Shown here piece after piece: positions 16,298-37,964 of a stretch of 64,000 nt of DNA. The notes under the pieces were generated by a model. The model was not told where the DNA came from and did no database searches. It worked only from the letters and a program-made list of their open reading frames with translations. The stretch is from contig DATHYT010000085.1 in NCBI GenBank assembly GCA_035459025.1, positions 64,133 to 128,132 of the forward strand, read 5' to 3'. This DNA comes from Burkholderiales bacterium. Lineage in GTDB: Bacteria; Pseudomonadota; Gammaproteobacteria; Burkholderiales; SG8-39. A program made the translations under genes and the position numbers. Numbering within the stretch: position 1 is the stretch's first letter; every line of letters starts with the position of its first letter.

Positions 16298-16905
16298 GCC
16301 TTGGGCACCTTCTTTTCCTGTTCCTTCATGTTGGCGCGCACGAAATCGGCGTACTGCGACTGCGGGTACTTGGCGAGCAGCGTCGCGTACAGCTTGAGCG
16401 CGTGCTGCGCCTGGCCGGCGTCGCCGGCGCGCACCGCGACCTCGACCAGGCGCTTCTGCGCGAGCGCAGCGTCGCCGGCAATCGCGGCGCCGGCGTGCAG
16501 CGCCCAGGCGGCCTCCATATACGTACCCTGCGCGAGCAGCGCGCGGCCGAGGCCCTCCCAGGCCGCCGGCTCGAGCGTGAGCTTGGTACGCTCGGCGACG
16601 ACCGCGAGGAACGCTTTCGCCGCGTCTGTGCCACGGCCGGCGGCGAGCGCCGCGCGGATTGCTTCCGCCGCGGCGGCGATCGGATCGGCCGGTGCGGCGG
16701 GCGTGGCGGGTGCCGCAGGCGCGGCCGGCTTTGCCGCCGGCGGATTCGCGGCTTGCGGTTTTGCACGCAGCATCTCGGCGACGAACTGCGCCTCGCGCTC
16801 GCGCTCGAAAGCCTTGCGTGCCTCGAACTTGCGCATGACGATGACGACCCACACCACGACGCCGACGAGCACGGCGAGGGCGGCGAGGATGACGAACGTC
16901 TGCAT
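16294..16905 (-). CDS. Membrane-anchored hypothetical protein (1 TM, Pro/Ala linker, TPR-like C-terminal domain)
   Basis: 203 aa with strong GC3 bias in this frame. TM helix FVILAALAVLVGVVVWVVIVM, then a PAAKPAAPAAPATPAAPADP linker, then a helical C-terminus. It lies antisense within the glcDEF block. Confidence 0.7.
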   Translation of the reverse strand: MQTFVILAALAVLVGVVVWVVIVMRKFEARKAFEREREAQFVAEMLRAKPQAANPPAAKPAAPAAPATPAAPADPIAAAAEAIRAALAAGRGTDAAKAFLAVVAERTKLTLEPAAWEGLGRALLAQGTYMEAAWALHAGAAIAGDAALAQKRLVEVAVRAGDAGQAQHALKLYATLLAKYPQSQYADFVRANMKEQEKKVPKA

Positions 16906-16911
16906 GCAACG

Positions 16912-16919
16912 AGTATAGC
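16912..16919. promoter_or_regulatory. Overlapping -10-like boxes in the 23-bp spacer between the 16905 gene and glcF
   Basis: Minus strand: TATACT (16917->16912), 6 nt before the ATG at 16905. Plus strand: TATAGC (16914-16919), 9 nt before the glcF ATG at 16929. No SD on either side. Confidence 0.3.
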
Positions 16920-16928
16920 GGCCCGCCG

Positions 16929-18134: not shown

Positions 18135-18144
18135 AATCCGGCGC

Positions 18145-22693: not shown

Positions 22694-22703
22694 CGCGCTG
22701 CGG

Positions 22704-22709
22704 TAGAGT
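22704..22709 (+). promoter_or_regulatory. -10-like box TAGAGT, 7 nt upstream of the ABC exporter ATG
   Basis: Sequence ggTAGAGTtgcgcgcATG with no SD between box and start. Confidence 0.3.
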
Positions 22710-22716
22710 TGCGCGC

Positions 22717-25973: not shown

Positions 25974-26070
25974 TGCAGATCAAGCCCGCACCCGGCCGCG
26001 AAAGTAGACTTGGGCACCCGGGGCAGCGGCCTCGAGCGAAATCCGGTCCGGCTATTCAAAAGGGAGATCC

Positions 26071-27660
26071 ATGTCGCAGGTGATTGGAGTGCCAAGGGAG
26101 TCGGCTGCCGACGAAAAGCGCGTGGCGACGGTGCCCGAGGTCGCGCAAAAGCTGATCAAGCTCGGCTTCAAGGTGATGGTGCAATCGGGCGCGGGCGCCG
26201 GCGCGAACTTCGACGATGCGTCCTACGAGGCGGTAGGCGCGCAAATCGCGCCGGACGCCAAGGCCCTCTGGTCCGCGGCGGACATCGTCTTCAAGGTGCG
26301 TGCGCCCACGGCTGAAGAGGTCGGTCTGATGCGCGGGAGCCAGACGCTGGTCTCTTTCATCTGGCCGGCGCAGAACTCCGAGCTGATGCAGAGCCTCGCG
26401 GCGCGCGGGGTCACCGTGCTGGCGATCGACTCGCTGCCGCGCATGCTGAGCCGCGCCCAGAAGATGGACGCGTTGACCTCCATGGCCAGCATCTCCGGCT
26501 ACCGCGCCGTCGTCGAGGCCGCCAACGCCTTCGGCCGCTTCTTCAACGGCCAGGTGACCGCCGCCGGAAAGATTCCTCCGGCCAAGGTGTTCATCGCCGG
26601 CGCCGGCGTGGCCGGCCTGTCCGCGATCGGCACCGCCGTCGGGTTGGGCGCCATCGTGCGCGCCAACGACACCCGGGCCGAGGTGGCTGACCAGGTGGTG
26701 TCGATGGGCGGCGAGTTCGTGAAGGTCGACTACGAGGAAGAAGGCGCCGGCGGTGGCGGCTACGCCAAGGTGATGAGCGAAGGCTTCCAGCAGGCCCAGC
26801 GCGAGATGTACGCGAAGCAGGCGAGGGAGGTGGACATCATCATCACCACCGCGCTGATTCCGGGCAAGCCCGCGCCGCGGCTGATCACGGCCGACATGGT
26901 GCGTAGCATGAAGCCGGGCAGCGTCATCGTCGACATGGCTGCGGAGCAGGGCGGCAACTGCGAGCTGACCGAGGCCGGCAAGGCCGTGGTGAAGCACGGC
27001 GTCACGATCATCGGCTATACGGACCTGCCCAGCCGGCTCGCCAAACAGTCCTCGACGCTGTATGCGACCAACCTGTTCCGCCTTGCCGAGGAGCTGTGCA
27101 AGGGCAAGGACGGCGTCATCGACGTCAACATGGAAGACGACGCCATCCGCGGCCTGACGGTCATCAAGCAGGGCAGCATCACCTGGCCGCCGCCGCCGCC
27201 CAAGCTGCCGGCGCCGCCGGCCGCCGCCAAGCCGGCGGCCGCGCCGCCCGCGCCCAAGGGGCACGGCCACGGCGCCGGCGCGCCGCGCTCGGGCAGGGCG
27301 ATGGCGATCACGTTCGTGGTGGCCGCGCTGCTGTTCTGGTTCATCGGCGCCAATGCGCCGGCGTCGTTCCTCAACCACTTCACGGTGTTCGTGCTCGCTT
27401 GCTTCGTGGGCTACATGGTGGTGTGGAACGTCACCCCGGCGCTGCACACGCCGCTGATGAGCGTCACCAACGCGATCAGCAGCATCATCGCCATCGGCGC
27501 GCTGATCCAGATCGCGCCGCCGCTCGCCGCGGGCGCCGGGGCCGACCGGCCGGAGACCTGGATCCAGTGGCTCGCGGTGGTCGCCATCGGCCTTACCGCG
27601 ATCAACATGTTCGGCGGCTTCGCCGTGACGCAGCGCATGCTGCAGATGTTCCGCAAGTAA
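26071..27660 (+). CDS. pntA: NAD(P) transhydrogenase subunit alpha
   Basis: SD AGGGAGA. An AlaDH/PNT domain ([14 protein letters not shown]), then a Pro/Ala linker, then a 4-TM C-terminus. Confidence 0.95.
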
Positions 27661-27672
27661 GGGAGACGATCC

Positions 27673-29088
27673 ATGTCCGCGACTCTGGCGACGGTCTCTT
27701 ACATCGGCGCGACCATCCTGTTCATCCTCAGCCTCGGCGGCCTCTCGCACCCGGAGACCTCGCGGCGAGGCAACCTCTACGGCATCATCGGCATGGCGAT
27801 CGCCGTGCTGGCGACGGTGTTCGGGCCGCGCGTCACGCCCGCCGGCTACGCCTGGATCATCATCGCCATGCTGATCGGCGGCAGCGTCGGCCTGTACGCC
27901 TCGCGCATCGTGAGGATGACGCAGATGCCCGAGCTGGTGGCGCTGATGCACAGCCTGGTCGGCCTCGCTGCGGTGCTGGTGGGTTTCGCCAACTTCATCG
28001 ACCCGGCGGCCTCGGTGGGCTTCAGCGGCGCGGAGAAGACCATCCACGAGGTGGAGATCTACCTCGGGATCCTGATCGGCGCGGTGACCTTCTCGGGGTC
28101 GGTGATCGCGTTCGGCAAGCTCTCGGCCAAGATCAGCGGCAAGCCGATGCTGCTGCCCGGGCGCCACTGGCTGAATCTCGCGGGCCTCGCGGTGGTGCTC
28201 TGGTTCGGCTGGCGCTTCATCCAGGCGCACTCGATCGCCGACGGCATGCTGCCGCTGGTGGTGATGACCGTGATCGCGCTGCTGTTCGGCATCCACATGG
28301 TGATGGCGATCGGCGGCGCCGACATGCCGGTGGTGGTATCGATGCTGAACAGCTACTCCGGCTGGGCGGCCGCGGCCACGGGCTTCATGCTGTCCAACGA
28401 CCTGCTGATCGTCACCGGCGCCCTGGTCGGCTCTTCGGGGGCGATCCTGTCCTACATCATGTGCCGCGCGATGAACCGGCGCTTTTTGGCGGTGATCGCC
28501 GGCGGCTTCGGCACCGAGGGCGGGGCCGTGGCTGCCAAGGGCGGCGCGCAGCCCGCGGGCGAGGTCGCGCCGATCAGCGCGCCCGAGACCGCCGAGCTGC
28601 TGCGCGAGGCGAAGAACGTGATCATCGTCCCGGGCTACGGCATGGCGGTGGCGCAGGCGCAGCACACGGTCTACGAGATCACCCGGCACCTGCGCGAAAA
28701 GGGCGTCAACGTGCGCTTTGGCATCCACCCGGTGGCCGGGCGCATGCCGGGCCACATGAACGTCCTGCTCGCCGAGGCCAAGGTGCCCTACGACATCGTG
28801 CAGGAGATGGACGAGCTGAACGACGACTTTCCGCAGACCGACGTCGCCATGGTGATCGGCGCGAACGACATCGTGAATCCGGCCGCCCAGGAGGACCCCG
28901 CGAGCCCGATCGCCGGCATGCCCGTGCTCGAGGTTTGGAAGGCGAAGACCTCGGTGGTGATGAAGCGCAGCATGGCCTCGGGTTATGCCGGCGTGGATAA
29001 CCCGCTCTTCTACAAGGAGAACAACCGCATGCTGTTCGGCGACGCGAAGAAGATGCTCGACGAGGTTCTGGTTGCCCTGAAGGGCTGA
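27673..29088 (+). CDS. pntB: NAD(P) transhydrogenase subunit beta
   Basis: SD GGGAGA. A multi-TM N-terminus and a C-terminal NADP(H) domain ([13 protein letters not shown]). Confidence 0.95.
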
Positions 29089-29146: not shown

Positions 29147-29983
29147 TTGCAGCGCTCGCTCGTCGCCCGCCTGCGCGCCCTGACCGACCGGCTCGGCCGC
29201 CGCATGAGTGCGCCGACGCTGAAAATCGGCGTCTCGGCGCGCATCCTGCATCCACAGCGCGGCGCGCGCGGCCTGCAGTCGAAGACGCTGCAGTACCTCG
29301 AGCAGACCGCCGCGCACTGGCTCATGTCGCGCGACGTGCTGGTGCTGATGGTGCCCACCGTGGATACCGGCGGCATCCTCCACCGCAGCAGCATCCGCCT
29401 GTCAGACTACGCGCGCCACCTCGACGGCCTGATGCTGCAGGGCGGCGCCGACGTCAGCCCCTTGAGCTACGGCGAGGATCCGCTGTCGCGCGAGTGGGCG
29501 GGGGACCGTCTGCGCGACGAATACGAGATCGAGCTGCTGCACGAGTTCATCGAGGCGGGCAAGCCGGTGCTCGGCGTGTGCCGCGGCCTGCAGCTCATCA
29601 ACGTCGCCTACGGCGGCACGCTCTACCAGGACATCGTGCAGCAGGTGCCCAAGGCGCGGCGCCACGTTACCGAGGACTACGAGAAGAATCTGCACGAGGT
29701 GCATTTCGAGCCGGCGGGGGCGCTCGCCCGCCTGTACCCGGGCGTCGAGCGCGCGCGCGTCAACTCTATCCACCACCAGTCCGTGAAGACCCTGGGCCGC
29801 AACCTGCGCGTCGAGGCCTGGTCCGAATCCGACCGCGTCGTCGAGGCGATCCGCGGCACCGGCGCGAGCTACGTGCTCGGCGTGCAATGGCACCCCGAGT
29901 TCCATCCCCCGGGCGACCAGAGCGTGCTCGACAGCGCGCCGATCCTCGACGAATTCCTGCGCGCGGCGCAGCGCGCGGCCTGA
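29147..29983 (+). CDS. Class-I glutamine amidotransferase-like / peptidase C26 gamma-glutamyl hydrolase family protein
   Basis: The nucleophile context is LGVCRGLQLIN and the His context is GVQWHPEF. The TTG at 29147 has GGGAGAG 5 nt upstream. The alternative ATG at 29204 has no SD. Confidence 0.85.
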   Translation: MQRSLVARLRALTDRLGRRMSAPTLKIGVSARILHPQRGARGLQSKTLQYLEQTAAHWLMSRDVLVLMVPTVDTGGILHRSSIRLSDYARHLDGLMLQGGADVSPLSYGEDPLSREWAGDRLRDEYEIELLHEFIEAGKPVLGVCRGLQLINVAYGGTLYQDIVQQVPKARRHVTEDYEKNLHEVHFEPAGALARLYPGVERARVNSIHHQSVKTLGRNLRVEAWSESDRVVEAIRGTGASYVLGVQWHPEFHPPGDQSVLDSAPILDEFLRAAQRAA

Positions 29984-29988
29984 GCCCG

Positions 29989-31200
29989 ATGGGCCTCGGC
30001 TTTCTGCCCGAACTGCCGCCCGCCTTCGGCCAGCCGGCGCTGTTTGGCGCGCTGCTGCTCGCCGGGCTGCTGGGCGGCGAGCTGGCGCGGCGGCTGCTCG
30101 GGCTGCCGCGCATCACGGGGTACGTGCTCGCCGGGGTGCTGCTCGGACCCCAGGCCTCGGGGCTGCTCGCCCCCGGCGCGCTCGGCGAGGCGCGCGTGCT
30201 GATCGACCTCTCGCTCGGGCTGATCGTGTTCGAGCTCGGCCACCGCCTCGACGTGCAGTGGTTGCACCGCAACCGTTGGCTGTTCGTCGCCGCTATCGCC
30301 GAGAGCGCATTCTGCTTCGGCGCGGTGCTCGGGACGCTCCTCGCCTTCGGTTTCCAGCCGCTGCTCGCGGCATCCGCCGCGGCCATCGGCACCGCGACGT
30401 CGCCCGCGGTGGTGCTGCTGGTGGCGCACGAGCTGCGCGCCTCGGGCCAGGTGACCGAGAGGATGCTCCTGTTCACCGCCGTGAATTGCGTGCTCGCCTA
30501 CATCGCGCTGACGCTGCTGCTGCCGTTCCTGCATCTCGAGCACGCGGTAAGCTGGCGCGAAGCCGTGCTGCACCCCCTCTACATCCTCGGCGGCTCGGCG
30601 CTGGTCGGCTCCCTTGCCAGCCTGTCGCTGCTGTGGCTCGCCGGCTGGGTCGGCAAGCGCGAGGACCGCCAGTTCATCCTGCTCATCGCGCTGGTGGTGC
30701 TGGCGGTGGGCGCCGCGCGCAGCCTCAACCTGTCGGTGGTGGTGACCCTCATCATCCTCGGCATGCTGGCGCGCAACTTCGACTACGAGCAGGTGCTGCT
30801 GCCGCTGCGCTTCGGCTACGGCGGGCAGCTGTTCTTCGTCATCCTGTTCGTGCTGACCGGCGCCAGCGTCGAGTTCACGGCGCTGCCGGGCGTGGCCGCG
30901 GCCGTGCTCGCCTTCATCGTCGCGCGCTTTGCCGGCAAGGGCCTCGCCATCCTCGTCTTCGGGCGGCTCTCGGGGGTGGGTCCGCGCAGCGCCGGGCTGC
31001 TCTCGCTTGCGCTGCTGCCGATGTCGGGTCTGGCCGTGGTGATGGTGCTGGACACGCAGGCCCTGTACCCGGCGTTCGGCGGCGAACTGGCGGCGGTGGT
31101 GCTCACGGCGGTGGCGGTGCTCGAGATCCTCGGGCCCATCGCCACCCAGTTCGCGCTGCGCCGCGCCGGCGAGGCCGACCCGGCGGCCGGCAGCGCCTGA
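29989..31200 (+). CDS. Cation:proton antiporter, CPA2/Kef-type membrane domain without a KTN/RCK domain
   Basis: ATG at 29989, 5 nt after the previous stop. 403 aa, entirely multi-TM (GYVLAGVLLGP...). There is no soluble C-terminal domain. Confidence 0.85.
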   Translation: MGLGFLPELPPAFGQPALFGALLLAGLLGGELARRLLGLPRITGYVLAGVLLGPQASGLLAPGALGEARVLIDLSLGLIVFELGHRLDVQWLHRNRWLFVAAIAESAFCFGAVLGTLLAFGFQPLLAASAAAIGTATSPAVVLLVAHELRASGQVTERMLLFTAVNCVLAYIALTLLLPFLHLEHAVSWREAVLHPLYILGGSALVGSLASLSLLWLAGWVGKREDRQFILLIALVVLAVGAARSLNLSVVVTLIILGMLARNFDYEQVLLPLRFGYGGQLFFVILFVLTGASVEFTALPGVAAAVLAFIVARFAGKGLAILVFGRLSGVGPRSAGLLSLALLPMSGLAVVMVLDTQALYPAFGGELAAVVLTAVAVLEILGPIATQFALRRAGEADPAAGSA

Positions 31201-31208
31201 GGGCCGAC

Positions 31209-32345
31209 GTGGACGAGACCGATTTCAAGGCCTCGCCGGAGCTCACCTTCGGCGTCGAGCTCGAGTTGCAGCTGGTGCAGCCGCACGACCTTGACCTGGC
31301 GCGCGACGCCGGCGAGCTGCTGGCGCGACTCGAGAAGCTGAAGCTCCCCGGGGCGGTGAAGCCCGAGATCACCGAGAGCATGATCGAGCTGAACACCTCG
31401 ATCCACCGCAGCTATCCCAGCCTGGCCGCGGAGCTCGACGCCATGCGCGATGCGGTGGTGAAGGAAGCCGGCATGCTGAATCTTCGCGTGTGCGGCGGCG
31501 GCTCTCACCCGTTCCACAGCTGGAGCGAGCGGCGCGTGTTCCCCACCGAGCGCTTCCGCCACATCCTCGAGCGCTACGGCTACCTCGCCAAGCAGTTCAC
31601 CGTGTTCGGCCAGCACATCCACGTCGGCTGCGCGAGCGGCGACGACGCGGTGTACCTGGTGCACATGATGACGCGCTATGTGCCGCATTTCATCGCCCTG
31701 TCGGCCGCTTCGCCCTTCTACCAGGGCGAAGACACGTCGTTCCAGTCCTCGCGTCTCACCGCGATTAACGCCTTCCCGCTGGCCGGGCATATGCCGTTTG
31801 TCGATGACTGGGCGGAGTTCCGCGTGTACTTCGAGAAGTTGCGCGCGCTCGGCGTGGTGGAGAGCATGAAGGACTTCTACTGGGACATCCGCCCCAAGCC
31901 CGAGTACGGCACCGTCGAGATCCGCGTCTGCGACACGCCGCTCAGCGTGGCGCGCGCGGCGCAGCTCGCCGCCTACGCGCAAGCGCTCGCCAAGTGGCTT
32001 CTCGAGCAGCGCCCGCGACAGCCCAAGCGCGCCGTGTACCTGGTGAACGCCTTCAACCGCTTCGAGGCGGCGCGCTTCGGGCTGCGCGGCCAGCTCATCG
32101 ACCCGTACGAGGAAGTGAAGCGCCCGCTCGCCGAGGACATCCTTGACGCGCTGGCGGGCGTCATGCCGCAGGCGGCTGCACTGGAAAGCGCCGACGCGCT
32201 GTCGGCGCTCGCCGCCGACGTGCGCCGCGGCTATTCGGACGCCGGCTGGCTGCGCGAGCGCTTCGCCGCCAACCAGTCGCTCGCGCACACGGTGCGCGAA
32301 TCCACGGCGCGCTGGGCGGGCGACAAGCCGCGCGCCAGCGGCTAG
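31209..32345 (+). CDS. ybdK: Carboxylate-amine ligase YbdK (glutamate-cysteine ligase family 2)
   Basis: GTG at 31209. Family motifs present: FGVELELQLV, EITESMIELNT, FGQHIHVG, YWDIRPKPEYGTVEIRVCD. Confidence 0.88.
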   Translation: MDETDFKASPELTFGVELELQLVQPHDLDLARDAGELLARLEKLKLPGAVKPEITESMIELNTSIHRSYPSLAAELDAMRDAVVKEAGMLNLRVCGGGSHPFHSWSERRVFPTERFRHILERYGYLAKQFTVFGQHIHVGCASGDDAVYLVHMMTRYVPHFIALSAASPFYQGEDTSFQSSRLTAINAFPLAGHMPFVDDWAEFRVYFEKLRALGVVESMKDFYWDIRPKPEYGTVEIRVCDTPLSVARAAQLAAYAQALAKWLLEQRPRQPKRAVYLVNAFNRFEAARFGLRGQLIDPYEEVKRPLAEDILDALAGVMPQAAALESADALSALAADVRRGYSDAGWLRERFAANQSLAHTVRESTARWAGDKPRASG

Positions 32346-32348
32346 AAT
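32343..32348 (+). promoter_or_regulatory. TAGAAT box overlapping the ybdK stop codon, 23 nt upstream of mrpE
   Basis: Sequence gcTAGAATcgcgcgctgcggcgcacgcacccATG. The TAG of the box is the ybdK stop. Confidence 0.3.
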
Positions 32349-32371
32349 CGCGCGCTGCGGCGCACGCACCC

Positions 32372-32848
32372 ATGCTCCACTTCGCGATACTTTTCGTCCT
32401 GTTCTACGCGTTCTGGATCCTGATGTCGGGATTCTTCACGCCGTTCCTGCTCGCGGCGGGCGCGGCGACCAGTCTGGCCGTGGTGTGGTTCGCGCACCGC
32501 ATGGACCTGGCGGACCGCGAAGGCCATCCCGTGCACCTCCTGTGGTCGGCGCTCACGTACTGGCCGTGGCTCGTGCGCGAGATCCTGAAATCCGCGCTCG
32601 ACGTCTCGAAGGTGATTCTCGACCCGCAGCTGCCGGCCTCGCCGACGGTGGTGCAGTTCAAGCCGCGGCAGAAGACCGTGGTCGGCCTGGTGACCCACGC
32701 CAACTCCATCACCCTGACCCCGGGCACGCTGTCCGTCGAGGTGGGGCCCGATCGCTTCCTGGTGCACGGGCTCACGCGCGAGAGCGCCAACGCGGCGGTC
32801 GACAGCGACATGGACCGGCGCGTCGAGCGCTTCGAGCGCAGGCCATGA
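32372..32848 (+). CDS. Mrp/Mnh-type cation:proton antiporter subunit E
   Basis: 158 aa and MnhE-like (FYAFWILMSG..., ANSITLTPGTLSV). Confidence 0.85.
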   Translation: MLHFAILFVLFYAFWILMSGFFTPFLLAAGAATSLAVVWFAHRMDLADREGHPVHLLWSALTYWPWLVREILKSALDVSKVILDPQLPASPTVVQFKPRQKTVVGLVTHANSITLTPGTLSVEVGPDRFLVHGLTRESANAAVDSDMDRRVERFERRP

Positions 32849-33129
32849 TGTTCGCCGCCGCGGCGCTCGCGCTGCTCGTCGCGCTCGCCCTGGCGCTCGC
32901 GCGCGCGATCGCGGGCCCGACGGTGTTCGACCGCGCGCTTGCCGCCAATTCCATCGGCACGCTCGCCATGATGATCCTGGCGGTGTTCGGTTTCCTCACC
33001 GGGCGCCCCGAGTTCCTCGATCTCGCCATCCTCTACGGACTGCTCAACGTCATCGGCACGATCGCCGTGCTCAAGTTCTTCCGCTACGGCGATCTCGGCG
33101 ACCCGGGCAGGCCGGAGGAAGAGCGGTGA
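32845..33129 (+). CDS. Mrp/Mnh-type antiporter subunit F
   Basis: The ATG at 32845 overlaps the E stop (ATGA). 94 aa, 3 TM, MrpF/PhaF-like (DRALAANSIGT). Confidence 0.85.
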   Translation: MMFAAAALALLVALALALARAIAGPTVFDRALAANSIGTLAMMILAVFGFLTGRPEFLDLAILYGLLNVIGTIAVLKFFRYGDLGDPGRPEEER

Positions 33130-33458
33130 ACGTGCTGCTCGAAGCCCTGTCCTGGGCGCTGCTCGCCGCCGGCGGCGCGTTCTGCGTCATCGGCGCGCTC
33201 GGCTTGGTGCGCCTGCACAGCTTCTTTCCGCGCACCCACGCCGCGAGCGTCATCGACTCGGCGGGCGCCGGGCTGCTGCTCGCCGGCATGCTGCTGCAGG
33301 CGGGCTGGACGCTGGTGGCGGTGAAGCTCCTGGTGATCGGGCTGCTCATCTTCTTTGCTTCGCCCACCGCGACGCACGCGCTTGCCAACGCCGCGCGCGA
33401 GCGCGGGGTGGCATACGACGAGATGACCGAGGAGGGGGAGGCGCCATCGAAGCCCTGA
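33126..33458 (+). CDS. Mrp/Mnh-type antiporter subunit G
   Basis: The GTG at 33126 overlaps the F stop (GTGA). 110 aa, MnhG/PhaG-like (GALGLVRLHSFFPRTHAAS). Confidence 0.85.
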   Translation: MNVLLEALSWALLAAGGAFCVIGALGLVRLHSFFPRTHAASVIDSAGAGLLLAGMLLQAGWTLVAVKLLVIGLLIFFASPTATHALANAARERGVAYDEMTEEGEAPSKP

Positions 33459-33478
33459 TCATCCAGGCGCTGCTCACG

Positions 33479-33988
33479 ATGATGGCGGCGACGGTCATCG
33501 CCATCATCGCGCAGAGGAACCTGTTCTCGGTGGTGGTGCTCGCCGGCGTCTACAGCTTCCTCATGGCGACGGTGCTGGTGGCGCTCGATGCGGTGGACGT
33601 CGCCATGACCGAGGCGTCGGTGGGCGCCGGCATCTCGACGGTGCTGCTGCTCGGCGCGCTGTATTTGTGCGGCGGCGAGGAGGCCAAGCCGATGGCGCGG
33701 CCGTGGCTGCCGCTCGCGGTGACGCTGGTGATCGTCGGCGCGCTGGTGTACGGCACCCTCGGCCTGCCGGCTTTCTCCGATCCCATGGCGCCGATCCATA
33801 CGCACGTCGTGCCGCGCTACCTGGGCCAGGCGCTCGCCGAAACGGGCGTTCCCAACGTGGTGACCGCCGTGCTCGCGAGCTACCGCGGCTACGACACGCT
33901 CGGCGAAACGGTGGTGGTGTTCACGGCGGGCATAGGCGTGATCGCGCTGCTGCGCCGCGCGCGCCGCGGCAAGGAGAAGGGCAAGTGA
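33479..33988 (+). CDS. DUF4040/MbhD-like membrane protein (equivalent of the MrpA C-terminal domain)
   Basis: 169 aa with the region VALDAVDVAMTEASVGAGISTVLLL, typical of MbhD/MnhB-N. The true start may lie upstream, because the in-frame IEALIIQALLT also looks like part of the domain but has no canonical start codon. Confidence 0.75.
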   Translation: MMAATVIAIIAQRNLFSVVVLAGVYSFLMATVLVALDAVDVAMTEASVGAGISTVLLLGALYLCGGEEAKPMARPWLPLAVTLVIVGALVYGTLGLPAFSDPMAPIHTHVVPRYLGQALAETGVPNVVTAVLASYRGYDTLGETVVVFTAGIGVIALLRRARRGKEKGK

Positions 33989-34407
33989 GGCGCGAGCCCG
34001 TCCTGCGCGTGGTGGGCAAGCTGCTCATTCCGTACATGCTGGTGTTCGCCCTGTACGTGCAGTTCCATGGCGATTTCGGCCCGGGCGGCGGCTTCCAGGC
34101 GGGAGTGATCACGGCGGCGTCGATCATCTTCTACGCGCTCATCTTCGGTCTGCCGGCCGCGCGGCGCGCAGTACCCGAGGCCCTGGTCGAAGCCATGGTG
34201 GCGCTCGGCGCGTTCCTGTACGTGGCGGTCGGCTTTGCCGGGCTCGCGCTCGGCGGCAACTACCTGGATTACTTCGTGCTCCACCCCAACCCGGTAGAAG
34301 GCCAGCATCGCGGCATCTTCTGGGTCGAGGTCGGCGTGCTGGTCACGGTGTCGGGCGTGATGCTGAAGATCTTCTACGTGTTCGCCGGGCGCGGCCGCGA
34401 GAGCTGA
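33985..34407 (+). CDS. Mrp/Mnh-type antiporter subunit B
   Basis: The GTG at 33985 overlaps the previous stop (GTGA). 140 aa, MnhB-like (LYVQFHGDFGPGGGFQAG). Confidence 0.85.
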   Translation: MRREPVLRVVGKLLIPYMLVFALYVQFHGDFGPGGGFQAGVITAASIIFYALIFGLPAARRAVPEALVEAMVALGAFLYVAVGFAGLALGGNYLDYFVLHPNPVEGQHRGIFWVEVGVLVTVSGVMLKIFYVFAGRGRES

Positions 34408-34410
34408 AGT

Positions 34411-34779
34411 ATGTCGGCGTTCGCGAGTCACTATACCTACTGGGTCACCGTGCTGCTGATGGCCGCGGGCCTGTACATCATGATCGCGCGCGGCAACCTG
34501 GTGAAGAAGCTCATCGGGCTGTCGATCTTCCAGACCTCGGTGTACCTGCTGTACATCGCGCCCGGCAAGCTGATCGGCGGCACCGCGCCCATCCTGTCCC
34601 AGGCCTACAAGGTGTATTCGAACCCGCTGCCGCACGTGCTGATCCTCACCGCGATCGTGGTGGGGATCGCGACGCTCGCGCTCGGCCTCGCCATCGTGGT
34701 GCGCATCCGCGAGGCCTACGGCAGCATCGAGGAAGACGAGATCGTCGCCGCGGACGCGAAGCGCGGGGACGGCGAGTGA
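34411..34779 (+). CDS. Mrp/Mnh-type antiporter subunit C (NuoK-like)
   Basis: 122 aa with the motif GNLVKKLIGLSIFQTSVYLLYI. Confidence 0.9.
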   Translation: MSAFASHYTYWVTVLLMAAGLYIMIARGNLVKKLIGLSIFQTSVYLLYIAPGKLIGGTAPILSQAYKVYSNPLPHVLILTAIVVGIATLALGLAIVVRIREAYGSIEEDEIVAADAKRGDGE

Positions 34780-36257
34780 TCTCCGAGCACCTGCCGGCGC
34801 TGCAGGTGGTCGTGCCGCTCGCCGCGGCGCCGCTCATCGTGCTGCTGCGCCATCCGGGCATCGCCTGGGCGATCGCCGTGGCGGCGAGCGTGTTCGCGTT
34901 CGGCGCGAGCCTCGGGCTCGCTGCGGAGGTGGCGCGCAGCGGCGTCATCTCCTACGCCATGGGCAGCTGGCCGCCGCCCTGGGGCATCGAGTACCGCGTC
35001 GACGCGCTGTCGGCGTTCGTGCTGGTACTGGTATCGGCGATCGGCGCGCTGGTCGCGCCCTACGCCCTGCGCAGCGTGGCCGCGGAGGTACCGCGCGAGC
35101 AGCGCTACCTGTATTACGCGGTGCACTGCCTGTGCCTCGCGGGCCTGCTCGGCATGACGATCACCGGCGACGCCTTCAACGTGTTCGTGTTCATGGAGAT
35201 CGCCTCGCTCGCGATGTACGTGCTGATCGCGCTGGGGCGCGACCGGCGCGCGCTGCTCGCCTCGTACCAGTACCTGATCCTCGGCACCATCGGCGCCACG
35301 TTCTACGTGATTGGCGTCGGGCTGCTCTACCTCGTCACCGGCACGCTCAACATCGCCGACATGGCCGAGCGCCTGCCGCAGGCCGGCGCGGCGCGGCCGG
35401 TGCTGGCCGCGCTCGCGTTCATCACCGTCGGGCTGTCGCTCAAGCTCGCGCTGTTCCCCTTGCACCTCTGGCTCCCGAACGCCTATGCCTACGCGCCCTC
35501 CGCGGCCACCGCGCTCCTCGCCGCGACCGCCACCAAGGTCTCGGTGTACGTCCTGCTGCGCTATTACTTTTCGGTGTTCGGCGCCGGGCTGGTGGTCGAG
35601 TCCCTGCCGGTGCCGGAGATTTTGATCGGCCTGTCGATCGCCGCCATCGTCACCGCGTCGCTCGTCGCGCTGTGGCAGGCGGACTTCAAGCGCCTGCTCG
35701 CCTACTCGAGCGTGGCGCAGATCGGGTACATCACGCTCGGCATCGGTCTCGCGACGCGCGACGGGCTGACCGCGGCGGTGGTGCACCTGTTCAACCACGG
35801 CATTACCAAAGGGGCCCTGTTCCTGCTCGTCGGCGGCATCGCGCTGCGCGCGGGTGGCGTGAATTTCGCGCGCCTGCAGGGCCTCGCGCGCGCGATGCCG
35901 CTCACCTGCCTCGGCGTGACGCTTGCCGGGCTGTCGCTCATCGGCGTGCCGGGCACGGCCGGGTTCATCAGCAAGTGGTATCTCGTGCTCGGCGCCATTG
36001 AGGCCGGGCACTGGTGGCTCGCGGGGCTGGTGGTACTCACCTCGCTGATCGCCGTGGCCTACGTCTGGCGCTTCGTCGAGGCCGCTTACCTCAGCGAGCC
36101 GGCCGCGGGCACGGCGCGCATCGCGGAGGCGCCGCTGCCGATGCTGGCGATTTCCTGGGTGCTGGTCGGTGCCTGCGTCTGGTTCGGCTTCGACACGTCC
36201 TTTACGGTCGAGGGCGCGCGCCGCGCGGCACTGCTCATGCTGGGCGGCACGCCGTGA
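34776..36257 (+). CDS. Antiporter-like subunit, MrpD/NuoM-N type (paralogue 1)
   Basis: The GTG at 34776 overlaps the C stop. 493 aa. Proton_antipo_M-type core with LHLWLPNAYAYAPSAATALLAATATKVSVY. Confidence 0.9.
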   Translation: MISEHLPALQVVVPLAAAPLIVLLRHPGIAWAIAVAASVFAFGASLGLAAEVARSGVISYAMGSWPPPWGIEYRVDALSAFVLVLVSAIGALVAPYALRSVAAEVPREQRYLYYAVHCLCLAGLLGMTITGDAFNVFVFMEIASLAMYVLIALGRDRRALLASYQYLILGTIGATFYVIGVGLLYLVTGTLNIADMAERLPQAGAARPVLAALAFITVGLSLKLALFPLHLWLPNAYAYAPSAATALLAATATKVSVYVLLRYYFSVFGAGLVVESLPVPEILIGLSIAAIVTASLVALWQADFKRLLAYSSVAQIGYITLGIGLATRDGLTAAVVHLFNHGITKGALFLLVGGIALRAGGVNFARLQGLARAMPLTCLGVTLAGLSLIGVPGTAGFISKWYLVLGAIEAGHWWLAGLVVLTSLIAVAYVWRFVEAAYLSEPAAGTARIAEAPLPMLAISWVLVGACVWFGFDTSFTVEGARRAALLMLGGTP

Positions 36258-37705
36258 CCGGCGCGCAGCTGATCGCCGCGTGCCTCGTCGTGCCCGCCGC
36301 GGGCGCGGCGGGCATTGCGCTCGCCGGACGCTGGCCGAACGCGCGCGAGACGGTGACGCTCGGCACCGCGGCGCTGCTGTTCGCGTGCGTGCTCGGCCTG
36401 CTGCCTACCGTGCTGGCGGGCGGCATTCCGCAGCTGTTCGTGCTCGAGATGCTCCCCGGCATCGCGCTCGGCTTTCGCGTCGAGCCGCTCGGGATGCTCT
36501 TCGCGCTGGTGGCCTCCGGGCTGTGGATCGTGAACTCGGTCTACTCCATCGGCTACATGCGCGGCAACGAGGAGCCGCACCAGACGCGCTTTTACGTCTG
36601 CTTCGCGCTGGCGCTCGCCGCCACCATGGGCATCGCCCTGTCGGCAAACCTGCTGACGCTGTTCGTGTTCTACGAGATGCTGACGCTGGTCACCTGGCCG
36701 CTGGTGACGCACCACGGCGACGACGAGGCGAGAAAGGGCGGGCGCGTGTACCTCGGCGTGCTGCTCGGCACGTCGATCGTGCTGCTGCTGCCGGCCGTGA
36801 TCGCCACCTGGGCGATTGCCGGAACGCTGGAGTTCACCCCGGGCGGCATTCTCGGCGACAAGGTGTCGGGCGCCGCGCTCGGGGGGCTGCTGGCGCTGTA
36901 CATGTTCGGCATTGGCAAGGCGGCGCTGATGCCGATGCACCGCTGGCTGCCGGCGGCGATGGTGGCGCCGACGCCGGTGTCGGCGCTGCTGCACGCGGTG
37001 GCGGTGGTGAAGGCGGGCGTGTTCGCGGTGGTGAAAGTCGTCGTCTACGTCTTCGGCACCGGGGCGCTCGCCGCCACCACGGCTTCCGACTGGCTGCCGA
37101 CGGTCGCCGGCTTCACCGTCATCGCCGCCTCCGTGGTCGCGCTTCGCGCCGACAATCTGAAGCGCCGCCTCGCCTACTCGACGGTGAGCCAGCTGTCCTA
37201 CGTGGTGCTGGCGGCGGCGATCCTCGCGCCCCTTTCGGTGATCGGAGCGACCCTGCATATCGCCGCGCACGCCGTCGGCAAGATCACCCTGTTCTTCGCT
37301 GCCGGCGCGATCTACACCGCTGCCCACAAGACCGAAGTCAGCCAGCTCGACGGCATCGGCCGGCGCATGCCCTGGACCATGGGCGCATTTGCCGTCGGGG
37401 TGCTGTCGATGATCGGGCTGCCGCCGGCCGCCGGCTTCGTCAGCAAGTGGTACATGCTGGCGGGCGCACTCCAGGCCGAGCACTGGGTGGCGGTCGGCGT
37501 GATCGCCGCGAGCACGCTGCTCAACGCCGCCTACTTCGTGCCGATCGTGTACCGCGCGTTCTTTCGCGCGCCGCACGGCGAGCGCCACGGCGAGGCGCCG
37601 CTGCCGATGGTGCTCGCGCTCGTCGCCACCGCGCTCGCCACGCTGGCGTTGTTCTTCTTCCCGCAAGTGCCGCTCGCGCTGGCGCGCGCGCTGCCCGGAG
37701 GCTGA
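36254..37705 (+). CDS. Antiporter-like subunit, MrpA/NuoL-core type (paralogue 2)
   Basis: The GTG at 36254 overlaps the previous stop. 483 aa. The motif HRWLPAAMVAPTPVSALLHAVAVVKAG is NuoL/MrpA-like. Confidence 0.85.
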   Translation: MTGAQLIAACLVVPAAGAAGIALAGRWPNARETVTLGTAALLFACVLGLLPTVLAGGIPQLFVLEMLPGIALGFRVEPLGMLFALVASGLWIVNSVYSIGYMRGNEEPHQTRFYVCFALALAATMGIALSANLLTLFVFYEMLTLVTWPLVTHHGDDEARKGGRVYLGVLLGTSIVLLLPAVIATWAIAGTLEFTPGGILGDKVSGAALGGLLALYMFGIGKAALMPMHRWLPAAMVAPTPVSALLHAVAVVKAGVFAVVKVVVYVFGTGALAATTASDWLPTVAGFTVIAASVVALRADNLKRRLAYSTVSQLSYVVLAAAILAPLSVIGATLHIAAHAVGKITLFFAAGAIYTAAHKTEVSQLDGIGRRMPWTMGAFAVGVLSMIGLPPAAGFVSKWYMLAGALQAEHWVAVGVIAASTLLNAAYFVPIVYRAFFRAPHGERHGEAPLPMVLALVATALATLALFFFPQVPLALARALPGG

Positions 37706-37706
37706 G

Positions 37707-37964
37707 ATGAGCGATCACTGGCTGGTACGTCCCTCCACGATCCGGCTGCTGTGGCGGGTGTTCATCGCCGTGCTCGCCCTTACCGTGATCGCGGAGTTCC
37801 TCGTCGTGCACCACCCGCACTTTGCCGTCGAGTCGGTGCCCGCGTTCGGCGCCTGGTACGGCTTTGTCGCCTGTGCCGGCATGATTCTGTTCGCCAAGGG
37901 GCTGGCGCTGTTCCTCAAGCGGCCCGACACCTACTACGAGGGCGAGGAGGGCCGCGATGCCTAG
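37707..37964 (+). CDS. Small 2-TM membrane protein of unknown function embedded in the Mrp-like operon
   Basis: The ATG lies 1 nt after the previous stop. The ORF overlaps the next gene by 8 nt. 85 aa with two hydrophobic helices. Confidence 0.6.
   Translation: MSDHWLVRPSTIRLLWRVFIAVLALTVIAEFLVVHHPHFAVESVPAFGAWYGFVACAGMILFAKGLALFLKRPDTYYEGEEGRDA

What the first reader, a model, noticed from the sequence alone, without database searches (positions are those of the whole stretch)
29147..32371. Gamma-glutamyl hydrolase-like / KTN-less Kef-type antiporter / YbdK ligase triad joined to the front of the Mrp-like operon
Three same-strand genes, separated by 5-nt and 8-nt gaps, end 26 nt before mrpE.
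- The first is a peptidase-C26/class-I GATase, with Cys in GVCRGLQ and His in VQWHPEF.
- The second is a 403-aa CPA2/Kef membrane domain. It lacks the C-terminal KTN/RCK domain, which in KefB/KefC senses glutathione and its adducts.
- The third is a YbdK-type carboxylate-amine ligase of the gamma-glutamyl-cysteine ligase family 2.
A putative maker and a putative breaker of gamma-glutamyl amide bonds therefore bracket a Kef-like transporter that has no gating domain. This suggests cation/proton flux controlled by, or coupled to, a gamma-glutamyl small molecule. It may act together with the downstream Mrp-like complex, giving 13 genes over 10.5 kb. This functional link is inference only.
Basis: inference. 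Interest (0 to 1): 0.6.

Follow-up and report, generated by a model that had tools for sequence, protein, structure and literature searches.

The report
Asp-less Kef-like carrier with YbdK ligase
The three genes are real, but the conserved unit is a two-gene operon: a YbdK-type ATP-dependent ligase paired with a Kef/NapA-fold membrane protein that has lost its cation-binding aspartate. The C26 hydrolase is a frequent add-on and the Mrp-like operon only an occasional neighbour, which gives the long-uncharacterised YbdK enzyme a testable transport-linked role.

Summary
In detail: coordinates, the 5-, 8- and 26-nt gaps, the domain calls and the catalytic motifs are all correct.

**What is conserved**
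- **CPA2-like → YbdK pair:** found in 75 of 76 evaluable species-level genomes, and the one miss is a truncated match. It also occurs in Polynucleobacter, Sulfuricella, Ca. Berkiella and two other distant lineages, with unrelated flanks and often overlapping genes.
- **C26 hydrolase:** a recurrent but optional partner, found beside the pair in at least four different arrangements. Its sister clade sits in classical γ-glutamylation clusters (GS-like ligase, alcohol dehydrogenase, aldehyde dehydrogenase).
- **Mrp-like operon:** follows YbdK in only 11 of 64 genomes. An NhaD-like transporter more often occupies that slot.

**The membrane protein is not a canonical Kef antiporter**
- The position of the strictly conserved ion-binding Asp (KefC D156, NapA D157) is Cys167 here, and never Asp in the family.
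- KefC E337 is replaced by Gly.
- An invariant Arg313 accompanies the retained Lys317.
- Invariant prolines sit at both helix crossovers.

**Best reading (about 0.4):** a transport-coupled γ-glutamylation module. The carrier moves a solute that is not a metal cation, YbdK ligates it and C26 hydrolyses the amide.

The parts
29989..31200 (+). Core gene 1: a 403-aa NapA/KefC-fold (PF00999) membrane protein with no KTN/RCK domain. It belongs to an Asp-less subfamily.
   Evidence: Pfam PF00999 at 2e-26 is the only hit, and no NCBIfam model matches. phmmer finds no PDB hit. The family profile hits KefC at 7e-16 and NapA at 3e-11. The AF2 model has pLDDT 94.6 and pTM 0.91. Foldseek's top hits are SOS1, NapA, SLC9C1, NHA2 and KefC, with TM about 0.7. 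At E<1e-30 the family has 224 clusters at 50% identity, nearly all about 400 aa.
30484..30489 (+). Codons N166-C167. They occupy the place of the KefC Q155-D156 and NapA D156-D157 ion-binding motif.
   Evidence: Alignments of the family profile to KefC and NapA place them there. hmmalign shifts the register by one residue, but no acidic residue exists in window residues 158-184 in either register. Among 125 family representatives, position 166 is N in 105 and position 167 is N, S, T, C, G, A or V and never D or E. Only 3 have D at position 166.
30925..30939 (+). R313, invariant and specific to the family, and K317, the equivalent of KefC K307 and NapA K305. They lie one helical turn apart on the TM11-equivalent helix.
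   Evidence: R313 is present in 61 of 61 and in 121 of 125 sequences, the remainder being gaps. K317 is present in 56 of 61 and 98 of 125.
30403..30405 (+). Invariant P139 at the first helix crossover break, where KefC has the K+ ligand T127.
   Evidence: Present in 61 of 61 and 119 of 125 sequences. DSSP on the model shows a helix break at residues 135-138.
31018..31029 (+). P344-M-S-G347 at the second crossover break. P344 is invariant, and G347 replaces the dipole-neutralising Glu of KefC (E337).
   Evidence: Column counts are. The model shows a helix break at residues 342-347. The role of KefC E337 is taken from PMC11150392.
31209..32345 (+). Core gene 2: a YbdK-family ATP-dependent carboxylate-amine ligase (GCS2 fold), 378 aa, with a GTG start 8 nt after the stop of the CPA2-like gene.
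   Evidence: NF010040 scores 546 bits against a cut-off of 425. It is about 45% identical over its full length to the E. coli YbdK (1R8G) and Salmonella (1TT4) structures, at E about 1e-106. It shares 77 near-invariant residues with unpaired YbdKs, including E17, E19, E53, E60, H136, H138, E237 and R239. A GAGGG Shine-Dalgarno-like sequence overlaps the stop codon of the CPA2-like gene.
29147..29983 (+). Accessory gene: a peptidase-C26 / class-I glutamine-amidotransferase-fold hydrolase with catalytic Cys145, His249 and Glu251. The likely true start is the ATG at 29204.
   Evidence: PF07722 at 1.3e-53. The PuuD equivalog NF008471 scores only 96 bits against a cut-off of 266. The best PDB relatives are 3FIJ, 7D4R and 6VTV (PuuD). 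The triad is invariant in 49 orthologues.
32320..32348 (+). Promoter-like site GCGACA-17-TAGAAT. It overlaps the YbdK stop codon, 24 nt upstream of the mrpE ATG.
   Evidence: It is the only sigma-70-like hit in 15 kb, where 0.8 are expected by chance, so on its own it is not significant. Its position fits the Mrp-like operon being a separable unit.
32372..39642 (+). Neighbouring Mrp-like operon: mrpE, F, G, MbhD/E-like, MnhB, C, D, D, an 85-aa ORF and D. It is not part of the conserved module.
   Evidence: Pfam and NCBIfam hits are. It is adjacent to YbdK in only 11 of 64 evaluable genomes.
26071..29088 (+). Upstream pntA and pntB (proton-translocating transhydrogenase). They are a syntenic neighbour within the closer Burkholderiales relatives only.
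   Evidence: Pfam hits are. Synteny holds in loci where the CPA2-like protein is at least 60% identical and is absent in the 46-54% group and in distant lineages.

Best explanation
**What it is.** The conserved unit is a two-gene operon. It encodes (i) an elevator-type membrane carrier with the NapA/KefC fold and a remodelled substrate site, and (ii) a catalytically intact YbdK-type ATP-dependent carboxylate-amine ligase.

**The remodelled site.**
- The cation-binding Asp is lost (Asn166-Cys167 in place of QD/DD).
- The crossover Glu is replaced by Gly347.
- An invariant Arg313 sits beside the retained Lys317.
- Invariant prolines sit at both helix crossovers.

**What this lineage added.** A C26 amidohydrolase was recruited upstream. 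Its clade is sister to the γ-glutamyl-amide hydrolases of Puu/Ipu-type pathways.

**Proposed mechanism (inferred).**
1. The carrier moves a small solute that is not a metal cation. This is most likely the amine or amino-acid substrate of YbdK, or its γ-glutamyl product.
2. YbdK uses ATP to join it, probably to the γ-carboxyl of glutamate.
3. Where C26 is present, it hydrolyses the γ-glutamyl amide. Together these steps form a transport-linked γ-glutamylation and deglutamylation module.

**The neighbours.** The whole module sits in a syntenic slot between pntAB and a TRAP transporter. The Mrp-like operon downstream is a lineage-specific neighbour, possibly with its own promoter, and not part of the mechanism.

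**Shown:** gene identities, conservation patterns, loss of the Asp and Glu, and intact catalytic residues. **Inferred:** the substrate class, the direction of transport, and that YbdK plays the role a GS-like ligase plays in known pathways.
For: **Pair conservation**
- YbdK lies immediately downstream on the same strand in 75 of 76 evaluable GTDB species loci. The single miss, L062, is a truncated CPA2 match with YbdK in the expected place.
- The pair is kept with unrelated flanks in five distant lineages: Polynucleobacter (CPA2-like 29% identical), Sulfuricella, Ca. Berkiella (Gammaproteobacteria), and two more at 31-34% identity.
- In those lineages the genes overlap by 4-26 nt in four cases and are 12 nt apart in the fifth.

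**Fold retained, site changed**
- The AF2 model has pLDDT 94.6 and matches Na+/H+ exchangers by Foldseek.
- The family motif N-(N/S/T/C) aligns to KefC Q155-D156 and NapA D156-D157. G347 aligns to KefC E337, and K317 to KefC K307. R313, P139 and P344 are invariant.
- KefC D156 is 'strictly conserved', and D156N abolishes K+ density and signal (PMC11150392).
- PIN1 and ASBT are NhaA-fold carriers of organic anions. PIN1 has prolines at both crossovers and a crossover-stabilising Arg. PIN1 and ASBTs share an Asn where the exchangers have Asp or Glu (PMC9477737).

**Enzymes look active**
- YbdK shares 77 near-invariant residues with E. coli YbdK.
- The C26 triad is invariant.

**C26 linkage**
- C26 is upstream of the pair in 36 genomes and downstream in 2 by the automated count; a third locus, L072, also has it downstream. 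These come from 61 evaluable genomes.
- In a scan anchored on C26, 23 of 80 loci carry the pair within 6 kb. Arrangements include upstream, downstream, convergent, divergent, and CPA2a-C26-CPA2b-YbdK.
- The sister clade of this C26 is embedded in clusters with a GS-like ligase, an Fe-ADH and an ALDH. The two contexts never coincide.

**Mrp not required**
-.
Against: - No substrate is identified, and there are no expression or biochemical data.
- A ligase plus a hydrolase with no intervening oxidoreductase would be a futile cycle unless regulated or completed by genes elsewhere.
- Most distant lineages have the pair without C26 nearby.
- E. coli, Caballeronia and Legionella YbdK work without an adjacent CPA2-like gene, so the ligase does not need this carrier.
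- Ca. Ichthyocystis has the carrier without an adjacent YbdK.
- The residue mapping rests on profile alignments with a one-residue register ambiguity. The model coordinates could not be inspected.
- Conserved acidic residues elsewhere (D73, E105, E148) could conceivably form an alternative cation site.
- The genome sample is dominated by related Burkholderiales MAGs, so the counts are not phylogenetically independent.
Confidence: 0.4

Rival explanations
1. The 403-aa protein is a KTN-less Kef-type K+(Na+)/H+ antiporter. Its flux is controlled by a γ-glutamyl small molecule made by YbdK and destroyed by C26, and it acts together with the downstream Mrp-like complex.
For: - The protein has the PF00999 fold, and KefC and NapA are its closest solved relatives.
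- The TM11 Lys is retained.
- The gaps of 5, 8 and 26 nt suggest co-transcription in this organism.
- In relatives the slot after YbdK holds either an Mrp-like operon or an NhaD-like transporter. That could hint at a cation-homeostasis theme.
Against: - The strictly conserved ion-binding Asp and the TM12b Glu are absent from the whole subfamily. D156N abolishes K+ binding in KefC.
- There is no KTN domain, and no separate KTN gene was seen nearby.
- Mrp is adjacent in only 11 of 64 genomes.
- The NhaD-like assignment is weak: 58 bits against a cut-off of 577, and CitMHS falls below its cut-off.
- A promoter-like site lies just before mrpE.
Confidence: 0.12
2. YbdK acts on, or as a subunit of, the membrane protein. 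It might be a cytoplasmic regulatory partner, as KefF is for KefC. Or it might be a protein-modifying carboxylate-amine ligase, as PafA is within the same superfamily. On this view the small-molecule chemistry is secondary.
For: - The two genes are strictly adjacent and frequently overlap, which suggests stoichiometric co-production.
- Identities of the two proteins to the window co-vary across loci (r=0.93).
- The GCS2/GS superfamily includes the protein ligase PafA (PMC2588565).
- E. coli ybdK is followed by the small membrane protein gene ybdJ.
Against: - The r=0.93 is confounded by shared phylogeny.
- No CPA2-GCS2 fusion proteins were seen among the longer family members tested.
- YbdK orthologues exist without the carrier and keep the same invariant residues.
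- The recurrent link to a small-molecule γ-glutamyl-amidase clade argues for metabolite chemistry.
Confidence: 0.15
3. A thiol-specific version. YbdK is a genuine γ-glutamylcysteine ligase here. The carrier moves cysteine, γ-Glu-Cys or a related thiol, and C26 releases cysteine again. The module would then be a cysteine buffer or thiol export system.
For: - E. coli YbdK has γ-glutamyl:cysteine ligase activity in vitro (Lehmann et al. 2004, known here only from the title as cited in PMC2588565).
- The window protein is in the same NCBIfam equivalog.
- A binding site that is neutral or positive would suit an amino-acid or peptide anion.
Against: - From my own knowledge, the reported E. coli activity is weak.
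- Nothing in the neighbourhoods points to sulfur or redox metabolism.
- The sister C26 clade is tied to amine or amino-alcohol-type clusters with ADH and ALDH, not to thiol metabolism.
Confidence: 0.12
4. There is no functional link. The adjacency is inherited synteny within one bacterial order.
For: - Most sampled loci are Burkholderiales MAGs that share the order pntAB ... DctPQM.
Against: - The pair persists in Nitrosomonadales, Polynucleobacter and a gammaproteobacterium with entirely different flanks.
- C26 has been re-associated with the pair in at least four gene orders.
Confidence: 0.03

Closest known systems
KefC/KefB glutathione-gated K+/H+ exchangers and NapA (CPA2, PF00999)
   Same: It has the same 13-TM NapA-type fold with two broken, crossing helices. 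The TM11 lysine is retained, K317 being the equivalent of KefC K307. A Ser/Thr-rich first crossover is also shared.
   Different: There is no KTN/RCK domain. The strictly conserved ion-binding Asp (KefC D156) is replaced by Cys, Asn, Ser or Thr. KefC E337 becomes Gly and the K+ ligand T127 becomes an invariant Pro. There is an extra invariant Arg313. Single-sequence phmmer finds no PDB relative at all.
E. coli YbdK (PDB 1R8G) and Salmonella homologue (1TT4)
   Same: About 45% identity over the full length, with the NF010040 score above its cut-off and 77 shared near-invariant residues.
   Different: The E. coli, Caballeronia and Legionella genes are not next to a CPA2-like gene. Here and across many Beta- and some Gammaproteobacteria the gene is closely spaced with, or overlaps, the carrier gene.
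γ-Glutamylation catabolic pathways (E. coli Puu: PuuP transporter, PuuA GS-like ligase, PuuD C26 hydrolase; Ipu and Spu-type variants). The Puu and Ipu pathway components are recalled from my own knowledge.
   Same: The logic is the same: a transporter, an ATP-dependent γ-glutamyl ligase and a C26 hydrolase. The C26 clade is sister to one embedded in clusters with a GS-like ligase, an Fe-ADH and an ALDH. The closest solved C26 relatives include PuuD 6VTV and the P. aeruginosa 7D4R.
   Different: The ligase is GCS2/YbdK-type and not GS-type. No oxidase or dehydrogenase steps are in the cluster. The transporter is CPA2-fold and not APC-type. The C26 protein fails the PuuD equivalog cut-off, with 96 bits against 266.
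PIN auxin carriers and ASBT bile-acid carriers (NhaA-fold transporters of organic anions)
   Same: Prolines at both helix crossovers, an Asn in place of an exchanger acidic residue, and a basic residue stabilising the crossover (PMC9477737).
   Different: No detectable sequence relationship was tested or claimed, and the resemblance is analogy only. The Asn is on a different helix position than PIN1 N112. Topology also differs: 13 TM here against 10 TM in PIN1.
Mrp (Mnh/Pha) multisubunit cation/proton antiporter operons
   Same: The downstream genes hit the MrpE, F, G, B, C and D families.
   Different: The gene order is EFG-B(split)-C-D-D-x-D, with three MrpD-like subunits and no full-length MrpA. 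Its adjacency to the module is not conserved, at 11 of 64.

Membership tests
CPA2 / Kef-type cation:proton antiporter | Na_H_Exchanger (PF00999) transmembrane fold with two crossing broken helices | tested here: met
   PF00999 scores 93 bits against a cut-off of 26.2. The AF2 model has pLDDT 94.6 with helix breaks at residues 135-138 and 342-347. Foldseek top hits are NapA, NHA2, SOS1 and KefC.
CPA2 / Kef-type cation:proton antiporter | Strictly conserved ion-binding aspartate in the TM5/6 motif (KefC D156, NapA D157; the 'QD' or 'DD' motif) | tested here: not met
   The window has N166-C167. None of 125 family representatives has an acidic residue at position 167, and 3 have D at position 166. 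The essential role of D156 comes from PMC11150392.
CPA2 / Kef-type cation:proton antiporter | Glutamate at the start of TM12b that neutralises the helix dipoles (KefC E337) | tested here: not met
   It aligns to G347, which is Gly in 46 of 61 and 77 of 125 sequences and Glu in 4 of 125.
CPA2 / Kef-type cation:proton antiporter | TM11 lysine (KefC K307, NapA K305) | tested here: met
   K317 is conserved in 56 of 61 and 98 of 125 sequences.
KefB/KefC glutathione-gated subfamily | C-terminal KTN/RCK domain, or a separate KTN or KefF/G partner gene | tested here: not met
   The protein ends 13 residues after the PF00999 match. None of the neighbouring genes scanned with Pfam or NCBIfam gave a KTN/TrkA or KefF/G-like hit.
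CPA2 / Kef-type cation:proton antiporter | Measured cation/H+ exchange | not testable with these tools
   This needs reconstitution or electrophysiology.
YbdK family carboxylate-amine ligase (NF010040 / TIGR02050, GCS2) | Whole-protein score above the curated equivalog cut-off | tested here: met
   546.3 bits against 425, and TIGR02050 at 322 bits against 176.
YbdK family carboxylate-amine ligase (NF010040 / TIGR02050, GCS2) | Full-length similarity to the solved YbdK structures and retention of residues conserved across the family | tested here: met
   E about 1e-106 to 1R8G and 1TT4 over residues 4-372. 77 near-invariant positions are shared with the E. coli, Caballeronia and Legionella YbdKs.
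YbdK family carboxylate-amine ligase (NF010040 / TIGR02050, GCS2) | ATP-dependent ligation of a carboxylate (glutamate) to an amine, with γ-Glu-Cys activity in vitro | not testable with these tools
   Only the E. coli enzyme has been assayed (Lehmann 2004, cited).
Peptidase C26 / class-I glutamine amidotransferase-fold γ-glutamyl hydrolases | PF07722 match above cut-off and a Cys-His-Glu catalytic triad | tested here: met
   182.5 bits against 20.5. C145, H249 and E251 are invariant in 49 orthologues.
PuuD (γ-glutamyl-γ-aminobutyrate hydrolase, NF008471) | Score above the equivalog cut-off | tested here: not met
   96.5 bits against 266. It is a relative of PuuD, not PuuD itself.
Puu/Ipu-type γ-glutamylation pathway | A GS-family γ-glutamyl-amine synthetase plus oxidoreductase steps in the same cluster | tested here: not met
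   No GS-like, Fe-ADH or ALDH homologue occurs in the window or in the C26-anchored loci that carry the pair (0 of 19). ALDH alone appears in 7 of 97 loci that carry the CPA2-like gene. Those genes accompany only the sister C26 clade.
   MrpE follows YbdK in 11 of 64 evaluable genomes. It is absent in L009/L031, Polynucleobacter, Sulfuricella and Berkiella.

The most novel reading that the evidence does not exclude
The Asp-less NapA-fold proteins are a new functional class within the CPA2 sequence family. They would carry an organic amine, amino acid or γ-glutamyl compound and not K+ or Na+. They would also form an obligate transport-ligation couple with YbdK. That would reveal the physiological role of YbdK, unknown since its 2004 structure, as the ligase of a previously unrecognised γ-glutamyl cycle. 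The downstream slot alternates between NhaD-like and Mrp-like transporters, which would mean the cycle is energetically tied to Na+/H+ circulation.
Probability: 0.2. Interest if true: 0.8.

Novelty: new variant of a known kind. Interest (0 to 1): 0.6.

Why it matters
- **YbdK.** It is a widespread enzyme with a solved structure, yet I found no established physiological role for it in the searchable literature. A near-invariant, closely spaced membrane partner gives a concrete handle for finding its substrate.
- **Annotation.** The partner is annotated everywhere as 'cation:proton antiporter / KefB'. It lacks the residue that defines cation binding in that fold, so the annotation is probably wrong for at least 224 protein clusters at 50% identity. 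The family may also show how an ion exchanger fold is converted to carry another kind of solute.
- **γ-Glutamylation.** The alternation of one C26 hydrolase lineage between GS-like ligases and YbdK suggests that γ-glutamylation chemistry has been assembled at least twice from different ligase folds.
- **Mrp.** For annotation of this operon, the result warns against reading the 26-nt junction as a 13-gene system.

Tried and rejected
1. **Wide CPA2-like alignments for the genome scan.** A 7-sequence alignment worked, but it returned only Burkholderiales and Betaproteobacteria MAGs.
2. **Profile search of the 5.8-billion-protein set.** A search with the 61-sequence alignment did not widen the taxonomy, because the top 120 hits were again close relatives.
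3. **Plasmid collection.** It holds no homologue of the CPA2-like protein. Its YbdK hits served only as unpaired controls.
4. **Rosetta-stone fusions.** I looked for CPA2-GCS2 fusions among unusually long family members. Only PF00999 was found.
5. **Leader RNA.** I looked for a riboswitch or leader RNA upstream of the triad and found no Rfam hit at E≤1. The only Rfam hit in the window is RNase P RNA.
6. **Terminator between YbdK and mrpE.** None was predicted, and the one promoter-like hit is within chance expectation.
7. **Literature on a CPA2-YbdK pairing.** Nothing relevant turned up. The most likely place for a prior neighbourhood description is Iyer et al. 2009, Mol Biosyst (PMC3268129). 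It is not held, so prior mention cannot be excluded.
8. **The 'mirror-tree' correlation.** I considered r=0.93 as evidence of interaction and rejected it as confounded by phylogeny.

Full report
**1. Observation**

The window is about 70% G+C chromosomal DNA. It comes from an uncultured member of the Burkholderiales. Identical contigs occur in metagenome assemblies, and the nearest named relatives are Burkholderiales MAGs.

The three ORFs lie exactly where stated: 29147-29983, 29989-31200 and 31209-32345, all on the + strand. The gaps are 5 and 8 nt, and YbdK ends 26 nt before the mrpE ATG at 32372.

The domain calls are correct.
- Gene 1 matches PF07722 Peptidase_C26 at 1.3e-53 and PF00117.
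- Gene 2 matches PF00999 only, over residues 25-390 of 403, so it has no KTN domain.
- Gene 3 matches PF04107. It also passes the NCBIfam YbdK equivalog, at 546 bits against a cut-off of 425.
- The quoted Cys and His motifs are present.
- The ten downstream genes hit the MrpE, F, G, MbhD/E, MnhB, MrpC and three MrpD-like families. That gives 13 genes in 10.5 kb.

There is one correction. Conservation among 49 C26 orthologues starts at residue 25, so the ATG at 29204 is the more likely start.

**2. What is conserved: genomes anchored on the membrane protein**

I scanned one genome per GTDB species with an alignment of the membrane protein. This found 311 relatives, and the best 80 were kept (46-94% identity). 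I then located homologues of each window gene in every locus with tblastn.

| Feature | Count |
|---|---|
| YbdK immediately downstream, same strand | 75 of 76 evaluable loci (the miss, L062, is a truncated match with YbdK in place) |
| C26 upstream of the pair | 36 of 61 evaluable |
| C26 downstream of YbdK | 2 of 61 by the automated count (L070, L089); L072 also has it |
| C26 absent from the neighbourhood | 23 of 61 |
| MrpE following YbdK | 11 of 64 |
| NhaD/CitMHS-like transporter (about 450 aa) in that slot | 29 of 67 |

The NhaD/CitMHS assignment for the slot-filling transporter is weak, because both family scores fall below their cut-offs. The window has no such gene. The order pntAB ... 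DctPQM is inherited synteny within the closer relatives only.

**3. Beyond that clade**

Representatives of the membrane-protein family at 29-52% identity were looked up individually.

| Lineage | Identity to window | Pair kept? | Spacing of the two genes |
|---|---|---|---|
| Polynucleobacter | 29% | yes | 8-nt overlap |
| Sulfuricella | 52% | yes | 4-nt overlap |
| Ca. Berkiella (Gammaproteobacteria) | 33% | yes | 12-nt gap |
| A Burkholderiales MAG | 34% | yes | 26-nt overlap |
| An unnamed proteobacterium | 31% | yes | 8-nt overlap |
| Ca. Ichthyocystis (obligate intracellular) | 34% | no, carrier alone | not applicable |

The flanks are entirely unrelated in every case where the pair is kept.

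Conversely, the YbdK genes of E. coli, Caballeronia and Legionella (41-47% identity) have no CPA2-like neighbour. In a crude NJ tree they do not form a separate clade from the paired ones.

The core unit is therefore a two-gene operon. Synteny by descent cannot explain it.

**4. The membrane protein is not a canonical Kef**

Single-sequence phmmer finds no solved relative. A family profile finds KefC at 7e-16 and NapA at 3e-11. An AlphaFold model built with the family alignment is confident, with pLDDT 94.6 and pTM 0.91. It shows helix breaks at residues 135-138 and 342-347. It superposes on SOS1, NapA, SLC9C1, NHA2, PaNhaP and KefC with TM about 0.7. The fold is therefore retained, but the binding site is changed.

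| KefC / NapA residue | Window residue | Family pattern |
|---|---|---|
| KefC Q155-D156, NapA D156-D157 | N166-C167 | Position 166 is Asn in 105 of 125. Position 167 is N, S, T, C, G, A or V and never acidic. Three sequences have Asp at 166. |
| KefC E337 | G347 | Gly in 46 of 61 and 77 of 125 |
| KefC T127 (K+ ligand) | P139 | invariant in the 61-sequence alignment |
| KefC Q334 | P344 | invariant in the 61-sequence alignment |
| KefC K307 | K317 | retained |
| none (KefC has F303 here) | R313 | invariant, one helical turn from K317 |

hmmalign shifts the N166-C167 register by one residue. This does not matter, because no Asp or Glu exists anywhere in window residues 158-184.

The KefC structure paper calls D156 strictly conserved and essential, and shows that D156N loses the K+ density and signal (PMC11150392). 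The PIN1 paper covers the NhaA-fold carriers of organic anions, PIN and ASBT. PIN1 has prolines at both crossovers and a crossover-stabilising Arg. PIN1 and ASBTs share an Asn where the exchangers carry Asp or Glu (PMC9477737). The resemblance is an analogy, not homology at the residue level. It still makes a substrate other than a metal cation the more economical reading.

The family is sizeable. It has 224 clusters at 50% identity with E<1e-30, nearly all about 400 aa.

**5. The two enzymes look active**

YbdK is about 45% identical over its full length to the E. coli and Salmonella crystal structures. It shares 77 near-invariant residues with the unpaired YbdKs. The C26 catalytic triad Cys145, His249 and Glu251 is invariant.

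The closest solved C26 relatives are Lin1909 (3FIJ), a P. aeruginosa amidotransferase-like hydrolase (7D4R) and PuuD (6VTV). The protein fails the PuuD equivalog cut-off.

**6. Is C26 really linked? Loci anchored on C26**

A reciprocal scan of metagenome contigs with a C26 alignment returned 80 loci (51-92% identity). In 23 of them CPA2-like and/or YbdK homologues lie within 6 kb, in at least four gene orders:
- C26→CPA2→YbdK;
- CPA2→YbdK→C26;
- convergent, for example L109, L110 and L129;
- divergent, L135 and L140;
- CPA2a→C26→CPA2b→YbdK, L107 and L112.

Seventeen other loci place the C26 gene among a glutamine-synthetase-family ligase (related to γ-glutamylputrescine synthetase), an iron alcohol dehydrogenase and an aldehyde dehydrogenase. 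That is the signature of the known γ-glutamylation routes for amines and amino alcohols.

The two contexts never coincide. They fall into sister clades of a neighbour-joining tree, with one exception, L123.

This is the best available support for two inferences. The first is that the C26 protein hydrolyses a γ-glutamyl amide. The second is that YbdK occupies the role the GS-like ligase plays in the sister systems.

**7. Mechanism**

- **Shown:** a closely spaced or overlapping carrier-ligase operon, an altered binding site, intact catalytic residues, and recurrent but optional C26 linkage.
- **Inferred:** the carrier moves the ligase's amine or amino-acid substrate or its γ-glutamyl product. 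YbdK ligates it with ATP, and C26 reverses the bond.
- **Weaknesses:**
  - No substrate is known.
  - A ligase plus a hydrolase alone is a futile cycle.
  - The ligase can exist without the carrier and the carrier without the ligase.
  - Alternative acidic residues (D73, E105, E148) have not been excluded as a cation site.
  - The genome sample is phylogenetically clumped.

I put this model at about 0.4.

**8. The Mrp junction**

In this organism the 26-nt gap and the absence of a predicted terminator make read-through likely. The only sigma-70-like match in 15 kb (GCGACA-17-TAGAAT, 32320-32348) sits right in front of mrpE, but one such hit is what chance predicts.

Given adjacency in 11 of 64 genomes, the Mrp-like operon is a neighbour and not a component. 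The slot alternates between an Mrp-like operon and an NhaD-like transporter. This is noted as a lead and not relied on.

**9. Novelty**

I found no paper describing a CPA2-YbdK pairing or an Asp-less CPA2 subfamily. The 2009 amidoligase survey that might mention it is not held.

The system is best filed as a new variant of the γ-glutamylation theme. It is built from a different ligase fold and a repurposed exchanger fold.

Noticed in passing
L028:3624-4973 (+), and the equivalent position in 29 of 67 loci (for example L009:12408-13772): A polytopic membrane protein of about 450 aa sits directly after YbdK in many relatives. It is distantly NhaD/CitMHS-like (TIGR00775 58 bits against a cut-off of 577; PF03600 26.5 bits against 31.9). 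This is the slot the Mrp-like operon occupies in the window, and the window itself has no homologue.
   Followed up: partly
window 32320-32348 (+): A sigma-70-like site, GCGACA-17-TAGAAT, overlaps the YbdK stop codon 24 nt before the mrpE ATG. It is the only such hit in 15 kb, where chance predicts 0.8.
   Followed up: no
window 29147-29206: Conservation in the C26 family starts at residue 25. The ATG at 29204 (M20) is therefore a more likely start than the TTG at 29147.
   Followed up: partly
L107:1614-6000 and L112:3951-8400: Two CPA2-like paralogues (31-37% identical to the window protein) flank the C26 gene in the order CPA2a, C26, CPA2b, YbdK.
   Followed up: no
L091:6001-9064 (Legionella adelaidensis plasmid): An unpaired YbdK is followed on the same strand by a protein with a cyclic-nucleotide-binding domain and a class II glutamine amidotransferase. 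This is a different ligase-plus-amidohydrolase pairing.
   Followed up: no
L092:5989-7421 (E. coli): E. coli ybdK is followed on the same strand by ybdJ, a small DUF1158 membrane protein. YbdK therefore has a membrane-protein neighbour there too.
   Followed up: no
L098:8001-9245 (Ca. Ichthyocystis hellenicum): This reduced intracellular genome keeps the Asp-less CPA2-like gene but has no YbdK next to it. It is the only exception among the six distant lineages sampled.
   Followed up: no
L007:8428-9078, and 35 other loci: A lone LutC-like (LUD_dom) gene sits upstream of the module, after pntB in the closer relatives. In the 46-54% identity group a LutB-like gene lies upstream as well.
   Followed up: no
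window 32372-39642: The Mrp-like operon has three MrpD-like subunits, a split MrpB (MbhD/E-like plus MnhB), an 85-aa ORF at 37707-37964 with no family hit on record in the homologous locus L007, and no full-length MrpA. This resembles the membrane module of Mbh/Mbx-type complexes more than a classical Mrp.
   Followed up: no
window 46095-46428 (-): Bacterial RNase P RNA class A (219 bits), which confirms a chromosomal context. No tRNA genes were found in the 64 kb.
   Followed up: yes
window 14001-26000: G+C rises to 0.73-0.74 against about 0.69 elsewhere. This was not examined.
   Followed up: no
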